Of a stretch of 16,102 nt of DNA, positions 7,796 to 14,780 are shown piece by piece; within the stretch, counting starts at the first letter, position 1; each line of letters starts with the position of its first letter. A model generated the notes under the pieces. It did no database searches and had not been told where the DNA came from. It was given only the letters and a program-made list of their open reading frames with translations. The position numbers and the translations under genes were made by a program. Source of the stretch: a virus. Its lineage: Duplodnaviria; Heunggongvirae; Uroviricota; Caudoviricetes. The stretch spans positions 1 through 16,102 of IMG/VR virus record IMGVR_UViG_2778261646_000017; one strand, 5' to 3'.

Positions 7796-8953
7796 TTAAT
7801 CGTCGTCCTGTGGCAGTTCCAGAATCTTGATCGCGTTCGAATCCACCACGCCACCGCCTAAATATTTCTGCGTGAAAATTTTGATGAAGCCCGGCTCTGT
7901 GAGGTTGTCCGGTCTGGTGCGAACACCTGTTTCGTGATCAACAATGTAGTAACCGCGTTTGAAGTCACCCAGGGCAATAACGTTATCAGGCATAAACTCC
8001 AGATATTCGACCGGAAGGCCCAGCAACGTATCAGGATCACCCGCCTGTAAACGGTCGCGCCAGATGTAATCACCGTTCGCGTTCTTCACCTTCTGAAGTT
8101 TTGCGGCCGTCGTGGAGTTAACCACCCAGACCGCGTTTTTGCGATATTTTTTATGTAATGCAAATTTCAGGTCGATCAGCGGGTCCGCAGATGTCCACGC
8201 CAGAGATTCGGAAGGTTTAATTACCTGTAACGTACCAAAATCACGCTCTTTGTCGTTCTTCTCTGCACGGGGTACGGATAAAAAGCCTTTTGCTTTTTTG
8301 TCACCGTCGCCCACAACCAGATCGCTTTCTTCGGTTTCCGTGAAGGTGTCGCCAATCTCACCCGTCAGCCATGAAAGGATGTCCACATCGGAAAAATCCA
8401 CGATTTCCTGTGTGGTGCGCGGGTACGCATAGACCGGATACAGCTTAATGCTCACCTCGTTAATCTGCGGGGTGCTGGTCTGTTCGCGTGCCTTACCCTC
8501 TTCACCGTGGTTAACGGTCGCACCGCCAGCGGAAACAAGCTGCTTAAACTCGTTGCTGCTGATTTTCTTCACGGTACAGATGCGGCGCATGGTGGATTCA
8601 TCCGCCAGCATTCGCATGATTTCGGTGTTCAGCTCGGGGATAACGGTATAACCACCATCAGCGGGAACGCCTGTACTTAATGCGCGGGTTTCACCTGTCA
8701 GGATGTAGTTTCGTAGTTCTGCGGGGTCAGTGGTCTGACTGCTTTTACCTGGCTTGCTGCGCTCTTCGTCTGCAATGGCTTCAAGGCGGGAAATGTCTTT
8801 ATCGAGGGATTCAGCTTTAGCGCGTAATTCGTCAAATTTTGCGCCCTCAGCATCGTTAAGACTGCGGTTTTCTTTTTCCGCGTTCTCCAGCATGTCGCGC
8901 ATCTGATTTTTAATGGCGGTTTTCTGCTGGCGTAATTCGATTATTCTCGGCAT
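7796..8953 (-). CDS. Major capsid protein, HK97-fold with N-terminal coiled-coil scaffold (delta) domain, 385 aa
   Basis: N-terminal 60 aa heptad-rich (LRQQKTAIKNQMRDMLENAEKENRSLNDAEGAKFDELRAKAESLDKDISRLEA); C-terminal body with capsid-like features (…GYYIVDHETGV…); followed by a terminator. Confidence 0.93.
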   Translation of the reverse strand: MPRIIELRQQKTAIKNQMRDMLENAEKENRSLNDAEGAKFDELRAKAESLDKDISRLEAIADEERSKPGKSSQTTDPAELRNYILTGETRALSTGVPADGGYTVIPELNTEIMRMLADESTMRRICTVKKISSNEFKQLVSAGGATVNHGEEGKAREQTSTPQINEVSIKLYPVYAYPRTTQEIVDFSDVDILSWLTGEIGDTFTETEESDLVVGDGDKKAKGFLSVPRAEKNDKERDFGTLQVIKPSESLAWTSADPLIDLKFALHKKYRKNAVWVVNSTTAAKLQKVKNANGDYIWRDRLQAGDPDTLLGLPVEYLEFMPDNVIALGDFKRGYYIVDHETGVRTRPDNLTEPGFIKIFTQKYLGGGVVDSNAIKILELPQDDD

Positions 8954-8960
8954 AAAAAAA

Positions 8961-8990
8961 GTCCTGGGGTTAAGTAAGGAACTCCAGGAC
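8961..8990 (-). promoter_or_regulatory. Stem-loop plus U7 tract immediately 5' of the capsid ATG; the stem contains the AGGA Shine-Dalgarno
   Basis: - strand reads GTCCTGG-(16-nt loop)-CCAGGAC-TTTTTTT-ATG; the only SD-like sequence (AGGA, 8 nt before ATG) is in the 3' arm of the 7-bp stem. Confidence 0.5.
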
Positions 8991-9167
8991 GCGGCAAAAA
9001 CTCAACCGTTTTTCATAAGGAAATCAGCAATCGCACCGATCGTTTTCCCGCCTGGTAATGAATATTGGCGAGAACATTAACAGGCGGAAAAGTGGCCCCA
9101 GCGTCCTGGCACCACGGGCGAGAATAATCATGATTCAGTTCGGGTAAAATATGCCGATCCGGTCAGC

Positions 9168-9193
9168 GAACAACGTGGAACAACCACGAACAA
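9168..9193. promoter_or_regulatory. Phased hexamer element GAACAA-cgtg-GAACAA-ccac-GAACAA, about 215 bp upstream of the capsid gene
   Basis: Three perfect GAACAA hexamers at 10-bp spacing; 9169-9193 is identical to the reverse complement of 14781-14805. Confidence 0.5.
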
Positions 9194-9210
9194 ATAATTT
9201 ACAAAACATG

Positions 9211-9235
9211 ACAAAAAGCCGGATTGCTCCGGCTG
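9211..9235 (-). terminator. Rho-independent terminator after the PerC-like gene (end of the early operon)
   Basis: - strand: AGCCGGA-GCAA-TCCGGCT followed by TTTTTGT, 6 nt after the stop. Confidence 0.6.
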
Positions 9236-9240
9236 TGTGA

Positions 9241-10187: not shown

Positions 10188-10229
10188 TTTTATTTTTACC
10201 CCCTCGTTTAAAAAGTTTTGAGTTGTGCC

Positions 10230-10465
10230 TCCCCTTGTCTACCTTATCTACCTTACTGGCTCTCATGCCAGTAATGGCGCGGCTTTCAGCGGGGTAGAGT
10301 GCTTTTATCCACTATCTACCCCGTATCTACCTCCCTGTCTGATTCAGGTAAAATCAGGTAGAGAGGGTAGATAGTAGGTAGACAGTGAAAAAAGGCTGTC
10401 TACCTAAGTTAATATACTGAATTAAATGTATTTTTCTTTACTCAGGTAGACAGGGTAGACAGCCA
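10230..10465. repeat. Iteron-type replication origin: at least 11 copies of GGTAGA / TCTACC in both orientations flanking an AT-rich core
   Basis: tgtctacc, tatctacc (x3), ggtagag, aggtagagagggtagatagtaggtagacag, gtctacct, then AT-rich taagttaatatactgaattaaatgtatttttctttac, then aggtagacagggtagacag; immediately 3' of the primase gene. Confidence 0.7.
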
Positions 10466-10475
10466 TTGCAAAAAA

Positions 10476-12525: not shown

Positions 12526-12753
12526 TTATTCTCCGGTGTGCTGCGCTTTATTATTCTCGTGAATTGCCATCACTGTATTTAATTCATTAATAACAGGCGT
12601 TAATAGCGTACGCACGGCAGAAAACATCATTGAATCAGATTCATCGCCACTTTCCGGCACATCAATTAACTTAAGTAGTAATGCGTCCATTTCCTTTGCG
12701 CGGATTAATGCGTTTTCAGAATGAACAAGAACATCAAAGGGTATTTTATGCAT
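12526..12753 (-). CDS. Hypothetical protein, 75 aa (start at the internal ATG with AGGGGGGAG SD)
   Basis: MHKIPFDVLVHSENALIRAKEMDALLLKLIDVPESGDESD...; the longer start offered by the ORF track (12855) has no SD and overlaps the upstream gene. Confidence 0.5.
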   Translation of the reverse strand: MHKIPFDVLVHSENALIRAKEMDALLLKLIDVPESGDESDSMMFSAVRTLLTPVINELNTVMAIHENNKAQHTGE

Positions 12754-12916
12754 GACTCCCCCCCTGGCGAATACGGGCGACAAAAATAAGATGTGCGTGC
12801 GGCAGCTGTGCACGTGCTTCGCGCTCAGTGGCAGCGGTAACGGTGAATATTGCAATACTGTCTGTCAGGCACTGCATAAAGCGCCAGACAAAATAAGGGC
12901 GTGCGAATACAGCCAT
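12746..12916 (-). CDS. Small protein, 56 aa, paralog of the gene at 13203-13406 (possibly the Icd-like cell-division-inhibitor family; unverified)
   Basis: MAVFARPYFVWRFMQCLTDSIAIFTVTAATEREARAQLPHAHLIFVARIRQGGSHA aligns with the C-terminal 50 aa of the upstream paralog (WRF...EARxQ.P......F.ARIRQG.SHA). The reading frame stays open upstream to 13210, so the N-terminus is uncertain. Confidence 0.5.
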   Translation of the reverse strand: MAVFARPYFVWRFMQCLTDSIAIFTVTAATEREARAQLPHAHLIFVARIRQGGSHA

Positions 12917-13202
12917 GTGAAAGGCTCCCAGATGAATTTTAAGGAGTCTCGCTACTACGCTGCTAAACATGGTGGCGAGACGTAACAGGGTTAGCAGACT
13001 GGTCATCTGGAAACCAGCGAGCACAAAGGCTCCCCCGTTACGCCCCGCCATAATGCGGGTATGGGTAGGTTTACGGACACAAAAAAACCGCTTATCGGAT
13101 GTGGGCGGCTGTCCGCCAGATGTATTCAGGCTGCTAAACCCGGTCGCCATGTGGGCGACGGGGGAAGCATACAGCCCCGTGATAATTTTTTGCAAGCGGT
13201 TT

Positions 13203-13406
13203 TTACGCATGATGTGACCCCTGACGAATACGGGCGGCGAATACCATCACGCAGCCAGCCGGGGATTGCTGGCGTGCCTCCTGTTCGCTGGTGGCCTCAA
13301 TGGTAATCACGCGCGGTTGTGCCGTGCTCAGGGCGATAAAACGCCAGATGTATTTATTCAGGTTGTGCGAGTCCCGCCCTTGCGGGTGTGTGGTATGATT
13401 TCTCAT
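13203..13406 (-). CDS. Small protein, 67 aa, paralog of the gene at 12746-12916 (possibly Icd-like; unverified)
   Basis: MRNHTTHPQGRDSHNLNKYIWRFIALSTAQPRVITIEATSEQEARQQSPAGCVMVFAARIRQGSHHA; GAGG SD 6 nt upstream of ATG at 13406; it is the C-terminal part of a 352-aa track ORF whose remainder I reject. Confidence 0.55.
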   Translation of the reverse strand: MRNHTTHPQGRDSHNLNKYIWRFIALSTAQPRVITIEATSEQEARQQSPAGCVMVFAARIRQGSHHA

Positions 13407-13501
13407 AGCTACCTCGATACTTTCGCTATCGTTGGTGGTTAGAGGCTGCGAAAGGACGGCAATCCTTTTCAGCCTCGTTTGCATTGAGTGATAGTTACTC
13501 A

Positions 13502-13582
13502 ACTGGATTCCAGTATAATCATCAAGTGGAATCCACTTCAAGCATTTTGTTTTGGTCTTTTTCGTGTATACTGGATTCCAGT
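13502..13582. promoter_or_regulatory. Three palindromic operators with core TGGAWTCCA, plus -10-like hexamers, in the divergent control region
   Basis: ACTGGA-T-TCCAGT at 13502-13514, AAGTGGA-A-TCCACTT at 13524-13538, ACTGGA-T-TCCAGT at 13570-13582; TATAAT at 13514-13519. Confidence 0.6.
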
Positions 13583-13602
13583 AATCACAAAGGAAACCGG
13601 AA

Positions 13603-13782
13603 ATGGAAAGAGACCATATCAATAACAAATCACAAAAATTACAGGCTCGCGCCCCGCATGAAGTTGTTGAGGCAATGGAGCAAGTCAAAGAAACAGGCGA
13701 GAGCACTGCGCAATTTATCGTTACAGCCATGCGCGGCGAGATCAAACGCCGCCAGCGTCGCAAAGCCAAAGAATCAGAATAA
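13603..13782 (+). CDS. Small ribbon-helix-helix-like DNA-binding protein (putative regulator), 59 aa; not in the ORF track because it is under 60 aa
   Basis: MERDHINNKSQKLQARAPHEVVEAMEQVKETGESTAQFIVTAMRGEIKRRQRRKAKESE; AGGAAA SD 8 nt upstream; predicted strand-helix-helix pattern; operators directly upstream. Confidence 0.5.
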   Translation: MERDHINNKSQKLQARAPHEVVEAMEQVKETGESTAQFIVTAMRGEIKRRQRRKAKESE

Positions 13783-13839
13783 TCACTATCAGCGCCGTGG
13801 CGTGAGGTACTCCGGCGCATTGCTTTACAGGTCAGTACT

Positions 13840-14049
13840 ATGAGCAAAAAACACCGATCAGCAGATGAGATTTTTGCAGAACAACGAAGATTGCTTTTGC
13901 AAAGTATCATTTCACGCCAGCAAGAGAAGGCGCGAGCTAAACAAATGCCACCAAATACAGAACCAGCGCCTACAAGATTTGCGCTTGATGACTTTCTCGA
14001 TAAACACCCCAGGGTAATGAAAGCAAACAAAAACCGCCCACCAGGCTGA
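13840..14049 (+). CDS. Hypothetical protein, 69 aa
   Basis: MSKKHRSADEIFAEQRRLLLQSIISRQQEKARAKQ...; weak AGGT SD; followed by a + strand terminator. No family recognised. Confidence 0.4.
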   Translation: MSKKHRSADEIFAEQRRLLLQSIISRQQEKARAKQMPPNTEPAPTRFALDDFLDKHPRVMKANKNRPPG

Positions 14050-14140
14050 TCACATTGCCCACCAGCCTGATAGCGGCTATCATCCCCGTGCTTATGTTTG
14101 AGATCACACACACAAACGGCGCAGCGGGTTATCTGTTCAG

Positions 14141-14173
14141 AAAGGCGGCTCCATTTCAGGGCCGCTTTTTTTA
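14141..14173 (+). terminator. Rho-independent terminator for the two small + strand genes
   Basis: AAAGGCGGC-(11-nt loop)-GCCGC followed by TTTTTTT on the + strand. Confidence 0.55.
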
Positions 14174-14318
14174 TTCCTGAAAAACCCCAATTTTGTTGTT
14201 TTTCAGTTTCACCAGGGCGAACGAATCCCCGCCCACGTTCTGGCGTATATTCAATCTTCATGGTTATAGCTCTGTGTTCAGATGATTGATGTGTGGCGGC
14301 TGCGTGCCGCCAGCGTGA

Positions 14319-14507
14319 TTAATGAACTGCCTTGCAGCTATCCTTCCAGGCCAGAACCTCGGATAAAGACCAGCCAACGGAACGACCGCCAAGTTTACGA
14401 CGTGATGGGAATTGTCCGGCCTTTTCCAGGCGGTAGCGACACGTACGGCTAAGGCCGGTTAGTTTTTCGCATTCTTTTTCACGTATAAACCGATCAGTGC
14501 TTAACAC
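14319..14507 (-). CDS. alpA: AlpA-family transcriptional regulator / excisionase-like HTH protein (62 aa from GTG; track ORF extends to a TTG at 14588)
   Basis: DRFIREKECEKLTGLSRTCRYRLEKAGQFPSRRKLGGRSVGWSLSEVLAWK matches the AlpA HTH signature (TGLSRST.YR....G.FP...KLG.R.V.W); GTG at 14507 has a strong AAAGGGGGG SD 5 nt upstream. Confidence 0.8.
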   Translation of the reverse strand: MLSTDRFIREKECEKLTGLSRTCRYRLEKAGQFPSRRKLGGRSVGWSLSEVLAWKDSCKAVH

Positions 14508-14780
14508 TATTGCCCCCCTTTCGTTTCTTAAAGAGTCATCAGGTGTCTTATTGTGTCGTATTGTTCCCGCTAGAGTGATGAATGGCAAATATTGAGGATG
14601 TATGATTTACAGAAAATGAAACAGTAAGAATAAAATCTTTTAAATTCATGTTAATACAAAGGCATAAAATATTGTTTCATGCCTTTTTTCTCACGCGTTA
14701 AAGCGTTATTCGCTAATGTATAAAAAAACAGTCACACAAATAAAATCAGTCACTTATAAACCTGTGTGCTTTTTCGCCTC

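What the first reader, a model, noticed from the sequence alone, without database searches (positions are those of the whole stretch)
13603..14588. Convergent transcription of alpA against the two small + strand genes
alpA (- strand) is followed by a GC hairpin without a U-tract (14294-14312), so read-through would run antisense across the + strand genes 13840-14049 and 13603-13782, whose own transcript ends at a + strand terminator (14141-14173). The 352-aa - strand ORF offered by the track across this interval is not protein-like and is probably just the open antisense frame. The layout allows transcriptional interference or antisense control between alpA activation and the RHH-type regulator.
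Basis: inference. Interest (0 to 1): 0.4.

Follow-up and report, generated by a model that had tools for sequence, protein, structure and literature searches.

The report
Hidden repressor cassette inside satellite-island bridging ORF
In this E. coli phage-satellite island, a small repressor cassette sits head-on to the activator gene alpA, and evolution keeps the strand opposite the cassette open as a reading frame, probably so that ribosomes can escort alpA transcripts through it as in satellite phage P4.

Summary
alpA is at 14319-14507 (-), followed by a GC hairpin without a U-tract at 14294-14312. Two real + strand genes end at an intrinsic terminator at 14139-14172. A 352-aa - strand ORF lies over all of it.

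The window is a capsid-forming PICI, 100% identical to E. coli CE10. The first + gene is a ribbon-helix-helix (Arc/CopG-like) protein. Three palindromic operators lie over a divergent promoter pair, and their sequence co-varies with the protein's beta-strand across alleles.

The 352-aa ORF is not a chance frame. In 51 sequence clusters from more than 12 genera, this one antisense frame is open for a median of 280 codons, against 17-42 in other frames. Indels preserve the frame, yet the parts outside known genes show no codon-type constraint.

Its position (after alpA), its C-terminal Icd-like domain and its nested short gene (13203-13406) match P4 eta/kil. In P4, translation from the alpA homologue prevents termination in the immunity region. 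A C4/CI-type RNA lies just downstream (12968-13055).

I read the locus as a P4-like translation-coupled read-through with a convergent repressor cassette embedded in it. The prototype EcCICFT073 has the same layout, although published descriptions call these islands unidirectional and without a known repressor.

The parts
14319..14507 (-). alpA (AlpA/Vis-family activator, 62 aa).
   Evidence: Pfam PF05930 at E=5.4e-17. PGAP gives these coordinates.
14294..14312 (-). GC hairpin after the alpA stop: 7-bp stem, 5-nt loop, no U-tract. It is not a canonical intrinsic terminator.
   Evidence: Fold. The hairpin is conserved in EcCICFT073 and other alleles.
13203..14261 (-). Eta-like 'bridging' ORF of 352 aa. 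It starts 57 nt after the alpA stop. It runs antisense through the + terminator, both + genes and the operator/promoter region. It ends with an Icd-like domain, and its stop overlaps the ATG (13210) of the next - ORF.
   Evidence: The same frame is open in 49 of 51 clusters, median 280 codons. Indels preserve the frame. There is no codon-position bias outside the known genes. P4 eta shares the position and the C-terminal domain.
13203..13406 (-). Nested short icd/kil-like gene of 67 aa, in the same frame as the long ORF, with its own SD (GAGGT, 13411-15) and ATG.
   Evidence: NF033153 at E=1.4e-19. pN/pS is 0.24 with a third-position excess of 67/84/223. PGAP annotates it.
13603..13782 (+). 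Ribbon-helix-helix (Arc/CopG-like) DNA-binding protein of the YlcI/YnfO family, 59 aa. It is the putative repressor.
13840..14049 (+). Second cassette gene, 69 aa, function unknown. It has a conserved FALExFLxxY motif and a basic N-terminus. In the E. coli-type alleles it lies 58 nt after gene 1 and in the same frame.
   Evidence: Alignment. Allelic forms hit phrog_21027. No Pfam, NCBIfam or PADLOC hit.
14139..14172 (+). Intrinsic terminator of the + cassette (GC stem plus U7). It lies inside the bridging ORF.
   Evidence: Fold. Compensatory stem changes between alleles. Present in 41 of 51 representative loci.
13502..13583 (.). Operator/promoter region. O1 is ACTGGATTCCAGT at 13502-13514. O2 is AAGTGGAATCCACTT at 13524-13538. 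O3 is TACTGGATTCCAGTA at 13569-13583. The leftward promoter for icd has its -35 at 13536-13541 and -10 at 13512-13517. The conserved rightward -10, TATACT, is at 13567-13572.
   Evidence: Repeats. Promoter scan. The three sites keep their positions but change sequence together with the RHH allele.
12746..13210 (-). Next - ORF (154 aa, the second Icd-like domain). It covers a C4/CI-type immunity RNA at 12968-13055 and its a1b1/seqA-like target at 13123-13172. The ORF, the targets, the C4 RNA and the Icd domain follow the same order as in P4 eta.
   Evidence: Rfam C4 at 72.7 bits against a gathering score of 45, and c4-a1b1 at 45.5 bits. NF033153 at E=2e-13. P4 comparison.

Best explanation
This is the regulatory core of a Gram-negative phage-inducible chromosomal island, built on the P4 plan with one addition.

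1. AlpA activates its own promoter. The resulting - strand transcript is not stopped by the U-less hairpin at 14294-14312.
2. Ribosomes start at the ATG at 14261 and translate a long ORF. That ORF crosses, in antisense, a convergent two-gene cassette, its terminator and its operator/promoter region. It ends in the Icd-like domain.
3. Its stop overlaps the start of the next ORF, which covers a C4/CI-type immunity RNA.
4. The frame is kept open so that translation stays coupled to transcription all the way from alpA into the replication and packaging operon. This avoids premature termination (Rho polarity, the + terminator hairpin read backwards, and C4-dependent termination). In P4, eta, coupled to the alpA homologue vis, does this job.
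5. The cassette's first gene is a ribbon-helix-helix repressor. It binds three operators that overlap the internal leftward promoter (which makes the short nested Icd) and its own promoter. This keeps the island quiet.
6. On induction, head-on transcription and translation from alpA probably also shut the cassette down.

Shown here: the anatomy, the RHH fold, repressor/operator co-variation, selection for an open frame without amino-acid constraint, and the correspondence with P4.

Inferred: DNA binding, read-through, the anti-termination role of translation, and interference.
For: Identity of the element: 100% match to the E. coli CE10 island between phoQ and roxA, with int, alpA, primase, capsid, portal and terminase genes.

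Open frame:
- The antisense frame that shares wobble positions with both + genes is open for 371 codons here.
- Across 51 clusters from Escherichia, Serratia, Yokenella, Citrobacter, Pectobacterium, Cedecea, Rouxiella and others, it is open for a median of 280 codons. The other five frames have medians of 17-88.
- The spacer from the icd ATG to the ylcI ATG is 109, 163, 196, 199, 202 or 211 nt, all 1 mod 3, in 50 of 53 loci.
- T before His/Gln codons, which would make an antisense stop, occurs 2 times in 312 against about 20% expected. Tyr codons follow only A- or G-ending codons.
- Substitutions in the non-overlapping parts show no codon periodicity (12/14/15 and 53/54/52). icd gives 67/84/223 and alpA 50/27/98.
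- In many clusters the ATG of the bridging ORF overlaps the stop codon of an upstream - strand open frame by 1, 4 or 8 nt. In 39 of 48 clusters the gap is between -60 and +80 nt.
- ORFs of 564-588 aa span two tandem cassettes.

P4 correspondence:
- P4 eta (8168-8812) overlaps the end of vis, spans the isrK/seqA and C4/CI matches, and ends in the same NF033153 domain at E=1.4e-20.
- PMC10111431, section 20, summarising Forti et al. [quoted passage not shown]

RHH repressor. Operators and their co-variation.

EcCICFT073 has the same layout, with a 428-aa bridging ORF. AlpA-dependent expression of its ORF3 is reported in PMC6092414.
Against: - There are no expression data, so read-through, translation of the ORF and any Rho involvement are untested.
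- The - strand RNA is not notably C-rich or G-poor, so no strong rut signal is evident.
- In this window alpA and the ORF are 57 nt apart rather than overlapping, and the SD before the ATG at 14261 is weak.
- The first ~16 residues (M..Y[ST]PE[RQ]GRGFVRP) are kept between this island and EcCICFT073 through several synonymous changes. Some homologues carry AntA- or Ash-type segments. Part of the product may therefore matter as a protein.
- Most cassette-bearing islands tested lack a C4 RNA at gathering score. C4-specific anti-termination cannot be the general reason for the open frame.
- The sequence comparisons are phylogenetically non-independent.
Confidence: 0.55

Rival explanations
1. The long ORF is kept open because its product is needed as a protein. 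It would be an Eta/'Bro-network'-type long Icd isoform, made only from alpA transcripts, in which the segment antisense to the cassette is a tolerant linker.
For: A C-terminal Icd-like domain is always present. The N-terminal ~16 aa are conserved between the window and EcCICFT073 with synonymous differences. Some homologues carry AntA or Ash Pfam segments. Databases annotate hundreds of such 300-588-aa proteins.
Against: There is no third-position bias, and pN/pS is 0.63-0.84 in the parts not overlapping other genes. The composition is 6% Cys and Ser/Arg-rich, with 22% rare codons. The alpA-proximal parts of different islands are non-homologous. The Pfam Ash model on P4 eta covers the stretch that encodes the seqA/CI RNAs, so such 'domains' need not reflect protein function.
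Confidence: 0.25
2. The + cassette is cargo unrelated to island control, for example an RHH-antitoxin/toxin pair or a defence module. On this reading the convergent layout has no regulatory meaning.
Against: Gene 2 has no toxin or defence-model hit and is absent from many loci, where the terminator follows the RHH gene directly. The operators overlap the conserved promoter of the island's own icd operon. The position between alpA and icd is fixed across genera.
Confidence: 0.1
3. One reading: the 352-aa ORF is an accidental open antisense frame, and the only feature of note is possible interference between convergent transcripts.
For: The translation is not protein-like. Antisense frames that share wobble positions with a gene are easier to keep open. 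The same frame is open for 90 codons over K-12 ylcI.
Against: The openness extends hundreds of codons beyond the + genes, through intergenic DNA. It recurs in 49 of 51 diverged clusters, with frame-preserving indels and a stop density of 0.04-0.11 per codon in the other antisense frames. The chance of openness is about 1e-4 to 1e-15 per locus.
Confidence: 0.03

Closest known systems
Satellite phage P4 vis (alpA homologue) - eta/kil - CI RNA immunity region (Forti et al. 1999, as summarised in PMC10111431)
   Same: The alpA-family gene is followed in the same direction by a long ORF. That ORF contains an internal promoter and a nested in-frame shorter gene, and it ends in the same Icd-like domain (NF033153). 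A C4/CI RNA and its seqA/a1b1 target lie in the same transcript. In P4, translation of eta from the upstream promoter prevents termination.
   Different: Here the long ORF additionally runs antisense through a complete convergent transcription unit (RHH gene, second gene, terminator) and its operators. The C4 cassette sits in the next, start/stop-overlapping ORF rather than in the long ORF itself. alpA and the ORF are 57 nt apart instead of overlapping. P4 has no protein repressor at this position.
Phage P1/P7 immI operon (c4 antisense RNA - icd - ant)
   Same: The C4 RNA family (Rfam RF01695) with upstream a1b1 targets and a downstream icd-like gene. From my own knowledge (Biere, Citron and Schuster 1992): control of transcription through translational repression and Rho.
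   Different: There is no ant gene here. The cassette is part of a satellite island driven by alpA. The region in the finding lies upstream of the C4 unit.
SaPI / Gram-positive PICI master repressor Stl (Rpr) with a divergent promoter pair
   Same: A small repressor gene is transcribed divergently from the island's replication/packaging operon, with operators between the two (described in PMC6092414).
   Different: The protein family differs (59-aa RHH against Stl). The repressor gene is convergent with alpA/int rather than co-directional with int. It lies underneath an ORF of the opposite strand. No evidence exists that a helper-phage protein inactivates it.
Arc/Mnt-type ribbon-helix-helix repressors (P22 immI) and CopG-type RHH regulators
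   Different: No significant sequence homology (E=0.22). It belongs to the uncharacterised YlcI/YnfO family.

Membership tests
AlpA/Vis family (Pfam PF05930) | Match to the Phage_AlpA HTH model above the gathering score. | tested here: met
   61.8 bits against a cutoff of 21, E=5.4e-17.
Ribbon-helix-helix repressors (Arc/MetJ/CopG) | An N-terminal strand followed by two helices, the RHH fold. | tested here: met
Ribbon-helix-helix repressors (Arc/MetJ/CopG) | Binds repeated or palindromic operators through the beta-strand. | not testable with these tools
   Indirect only. Three palindromes at fixed positions change their sequence together with the beta-strand residues across alleles.
YlcI/YnfO family (NCBIfam NF041551) | Match above the curated cutoff. 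| tested here: met
   72.3 bits against 30, E=2.4e-20. No function for the family was found in the literature searched.
P4-type eta/kil nested genes | A long ORF directly downstream of, and co-directional with, the alpA homologue. | tested here: met
   In the window the ATG at 14261 lies 57 nt after the alpA stop. In P4, eta overlaps the end of vis. Start/stop overlaps with an upstream - strand frame are common in related loci.
P4-type eta/kil nested genes | A C-terminal Icd/Kil-like domain and a nested in-frame short gene with its own start. | tested here: met
   NF033153 matches residues 304-347 of the long ORF and 19-62 of the 67-aa gene. The same domain is found in P4 eta at 161-208.
P4-type eta/kil nested genes | An internal promoter inside the long ORF. 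| tested here: inconclusive
   A consensus-like -35/-10 at 13541-13512, conserved across alleles. No transcript data.
P4-type eta/kil nested genes | The CI/C4 RNA and its seqA target are encoded within the long ORF. | tested here: not met
   In this window they lie in the next ORF, 12746-13210. In the related locus L035 they are inside the long open frame.
P4-type eta/kil nested genes | Translation of the long ORF suppresses transcription termination. | not testable with these tools
   Only the evolutionary signature is available: the frame is kept open without amino-acid constraint.
Type II toxin-antitoxin pair | A recognisable toxin partner next to the RHH antitoxin. | tested here: not met
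   Gene 2 has no Pfam, NCBIfam, PHROG-function or PADLOC match, and it is missing from many loci.
Capsid-forming PICI (cf-PICI) | int, alpA and primase together with the island's own capsid, protease, portal, connector, HNH and terminase genes, in about 15 kb at a PICI att site. | tested here: met
   PGAP annotation of the identical CE10 island between phoQ and roxA. The definition is in bioRxiv 10.1101/2022.09.08.507074.

The most novel reading that the evidence does not exclude
Gram-negative PICIs, including the prototype EcCICFT073, do have a master repressor. It is a 59-aa RHH protein of the uncharacterised YlcI/YnfO family, hidden on the opposite strand of what is annotated as one long 'Icd-like' gene. 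The long ORF over it is largely a 'translational bridge'. On this reading the frame is selected only to stay open, so that ribosomes escort AlpA-driven RNA polymerase head-on through the repressor cassette. That passage silences the cassette and commits the island to induction.
Probability: 0.35. Interest if true: 0.75.

Novelty: new variant of a known kind. Interest (0 to 1): 0.58.

Why it matters
Published descriptions say that Gram-negative PICIs are transcribed in one direction, and that whether they have a global repressor is unclear (PMC6092414). This locus, and the prototype EcCICFT073, carry a conserved, oppositely oriented RHH gene with co-evolving operators over the promoter of the replication operon. 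That gives a concrete candidate for the missing repressor, and simple experiments can test it.

The locus is also a clean natural case of a reading frame kept open without amino-acid constraint. This extends the P4 eta idea, translation as an anti-termination device, to a frame that must also share its DNA with two genes, a terminator and three operators on the other strand.

There is a practical consequence as well. Gene callers that accept the long ORF hide the cassette, and PGAP's 'Icd-like pseudogene' at 14039-14261 most likely comes from homology to long ORFs annotated in other genomes.

Tried and rejected
- tblastn of the RHH protein against 50,697 phage records found no match.
- The search for related loci with the widest alignment failed for lack of a conserved block. 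A narrower alignment worked.
- C/G composition of the - strand RNA, as a proxy for Rho loading sites, gave no clear signal.
- Shuffling synonymous codons within each + gene was not a powerful test. 40-60% of shuffles also lack antisense stops, because codon usage is already shaped.
- Stop-codon read-through of alpA into the long ORF is rejected. They are in frame here, separated only by alpA's TAA. In EcCICFT073 the gap is 52 nt, so they are out of frame.
- A toxin-antitoxin or defence reading of the cassette found no support.
- The Rfam hit to the R1162 antisense RNA at 13405-13477 (E=0.35) was dismissed as chance.
It was redone with database homologues.
- Forti et al. 1999 (PMC94026) is not held in the library. 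I cite it through PMC10111431.

Full report
**What the window is.** The 1.7 kb around the finding is 100% identical to E. coli CE10 and three other genomes. PGAP annotation of that record shows a roughly 15-kb island between phoQ and roxA. It carries int, alpA, Icd-like genes, DUF4222, primase, SSB, PerC, major capsid, prohead protease, portal, connectors, HNH and terminase small and large subunits. This is a capsid-forming phage-inducible chromosomal island (cf-PICI) as defined in bioRxiv 10.1101/2022.09.08.507074. Every island gene is on the - strand except two small + strand genes, at 13603-13782 and 13840-14049.

**Checking the observation.** alpA is at 14319-14507 (Pfam Phage_AlpA, E=5e-17). 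The hairpin at 14294-14312 folds as a 7-bp GC stem with a 5-nt loop and is followed by CACAUCAAUC, so there is no U-tract. The + strand terminator is a GC stem at 14139-14171 with seven U at 14166-14172. Other alleles keep that stem through compensatory changes, and 41 of 51 representative loci have such a + strand terminator right after the cassette. The 352-aa - ORF at 13203-14261 exists, and its first 285 residues are unlike normal protein: Ser, Leu and Arg are the commonest residues, Cys is 6%, and 22% of codons are rare. All coordinates stand.

**The + cassette is real and regulatory.**
- Gene 1 matches NCBIfam YlcI/YnfO (E=2e-20). Homologues occur across Enterobacterales.
- Upstream lie three palindromes: ACTGGATTCCAGT at 13502-13514, AAGTGGAATCCACTT at 13524-13538 and TACTGGATTCCAGTA at 13569-13583.
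- They overlap a leftward promoter-like site (-35 at 13536-41, -10 at 13512-17) and a conserved rightward TATACT.
- In an alignment of 38 distinct versions of this spacer, the three sites keep their positions while their sequence changes with the allele of the protein. Beta-strand KSQKLQARAP goes with TGGAWTCCA, KSQKMSARVP with TGGCACCCA, KSQTVAARVP with GTGTTGAACAC, KSQQLNARFP with GTGAATCGCAC, and so on.
- That is the signature of a repressor and its operators. DNA binding itself is an inference.
- Gene 2 is a small conserved protein (FALExFLxxY motif, basic N-terminus) with no functional match. Many non-E. coli loci lack it.

**The 352-aa ORF is not an accident.**
- Both + genes are in one frame. 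The - ORF is the antisense frame whose third codon positions coincide with theirs.
- I collected 15 loci from genomes of a dozen genera and 80 loci from IMG/VR. In almost all of them the same antisense frame is open for hundreds of codons.
- After clustering into 51 groups (at least 90% identity over at least 70% of the shorter region), the median open length is 280 codons (range 54-568). The other antisense and sense frames have medians of 17-42, and the RHH frame itself 88. Given the stop density in the other antisense frames (0.04-0.11 per codon), the chance of such openness is about 1e-4 to 1e-15 per locus.
- The 'intergenic' spacer between the icd ATG and the RHH ATG is 109, 163, 196, 199, 202 or 211 nt, all 1 mod 3, in 50 of 53 loci.
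- In the + genes, the base before a His/Gln codon is T in only 2 of 312 cases. A T there would create an antisense stop. Tyr codons follow only A- or G-ending codons.
- As a control, over the unrelated K-12 prophage gene ylcI the same frame is open for only 90 codons.
- A protein search finds 2126 relatives. Many are 300-588-aa 'Icd-like' proteins in other E. coli, including ORFs that span two tandem cassettes.

**Open, but not constrained as protein.** Against the window sequence, substitutions in the stretch 14050-14261 fall 12/14/15 on codon positions 1/2/3 (pN/pS 0.63). In 13407-13602 they fall 53/54/52 (pN/pS 0.84). The nested icd gene gives 67/84/223 (0.24) and alpA 50/27/98 (0.31). The samples are small and not phylogenetically independent, but the contrast is clear. 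Selection keeps the frame open rather than preserving the amino-acid sequence. One exception is the first ~16 residues, which are shared with EcCICFT073 through several synonymous changes.

**The P4 precedent.**
- The last 67 codons of the ORF are an annotated Icd-like gene with its own SD and ATG. It is therefore a short gene nested in frame within a long one.
- In P4, the ORF eta (8168-8812) starts inside the end of vis, the alpA homologue. It spans the matches to isrK/seqA, c4-a1b1 and C4/CI, and it ends in the same NF033153 domain.
- PMC10111431, summarising Forti et al. 1999, describes the mechanism. Transcripts from the promoter internal to eta terminate early because of CI RNA. Full-length eta can only be translated from the upstream late promoter, coupled to the alpA homologue. 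[quoted passage not shown]
- In the window, the stop of the long ORF (13203-13205) overlaps the ATG (13210) of the next ORF. Inside that ORF, Rfam finds a C4 RNA at 12968-13055 (72.7 bits, gathering score 45) and an a1b1 target at 13123-13172 (45.5 bits).
- In related loci, the ATG of the bridging ORF often overlaps the stop of an upstream - strand open frame by 1, 4 or 8 nt.

**Best explanation.** The island uses the P4 logic. alpA-driven transcripts are translated almost without a gap from alpA into the replication genes. The long ORF is the part of that path that has to cross the embedded, convergent repressor cassette.

**Link to experimental work.**
- EcCICFT073, the prototype Gram-negative PICI, sits at the same att site and has the same layout: alpA, a 428-aa bridging ORF, and antisense YlcI/YnfO and gene-2 homologues.
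- Fillol-Salom et al. [quoted passage not shown] They also report that AlpA activates itself and a reporter in 'ORF3'.
- ORF3 is most likely this bridging ORF. That is my inference from gene order.
- I found no paper that describes the RHH cassette.

**Limits.**
- There are no expression or binding data.
- No rut-like composition was found.
- Most cassette-bearing islands tested lack a C4 RNA at gathering score, so C4-specific anti-termination cannot be the general reason for the open frame. General avoidance of Rho polarity is the fallback, and it is an inference.
- A protein function for parts of the long ORF cannot be excluded.

**Verdict.** The locus is a new variant of the P4 vis-eta/kil design: a convergent RHH repressor cassette lies inside the bridging ORF.

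Noticed in passing
window 12968-13172 (-): Rfam finds a C4 antisense RNA at 12968-13055 (72.7 bits), a c4-a1b1 target at 13123-13172 (45.5 bits, just under the gathering score) and a sub-threshold isrK match at 13081-13159. All lie inside the 154-aa 'Icd-like' ORF. This is a P4/P1-type RNA immunity cassette in a cf-PICI. Of 20 related loci, only L004 and L035 also have a C4 hit.
   Followed up: partly
window 13391-13486 (+): Candidate + strand sRNA of about 80 nt, antisense to the icd start codon and SD. It has a conserved extended -10 (TGnTATGAT, 13391-13399) inside icd codons 2-5, where amino-acid changes are tolerated but the -10 is kept or improved. It also has a conserved hairpin at 13442-13476 with many compensatory changes and with G.U pairs that work only on the + strand, followed by a T-rich tail.
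   Followed up: partly
window 14039-14261 (-): PGAP's 'Icd-like pseudogene, missing C-terminus' is simply the N-terminal part of the long ORF. It was most likely flagged because full-length versions are annotated as Icd-like proteins in other genomes.
   Followed up: yes
L002 1886-3010 (E. coli JNEC-KY172): Here the cassette is tandemly duplicated, with two different RHH and gene-2 alleles. The second RHH copy hits the PHROG 'Arc-like repressor'. In this genome the antisense frame is split into 216-aa and 335-aa ORFs. Other genomes have single ORFs of 564-588 aa spanning two cassettes.
   Followed up: partly
L101 (phage P4) 8168-8812 (-): The Pfam family Phage_ASH matches residues 37-161 of P4 eta. 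That is the stretch of DNA that encodes the seqA and CI RNAs, so this protein family may largely model the translation of RNA genes.
   Followed up: no
window 14214-14261 (-) and L103 5767-5814 (+): The first ~16 residues of the bridging ORF (M..Y[ST]PE[RQ]GRGFVRP) are conserved between this island and EcCICFT073, with several synonymous differences. After that the sequences are unrelated. The same DNA also contains an inverted repeat (GAACG..GGGCG...CGTTCGCCC).
   Followed up: no
L012 4943-5011 and L016 4928-4993 (-): Rfam 'int-alpA RNA' (RF02996) matches above the gathering score in two related loci. No such match was reported in the part of the window searched.
   Followed up: no
window 10188-10475 and 8954-9240: These are the only long gaps (about 288 nt each) in an otherwise tightly packed or overlapping - strand gene series running from the bridging ORF to the terminase. 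They may hold the replication origin and a late promoter.
   Followed up: no
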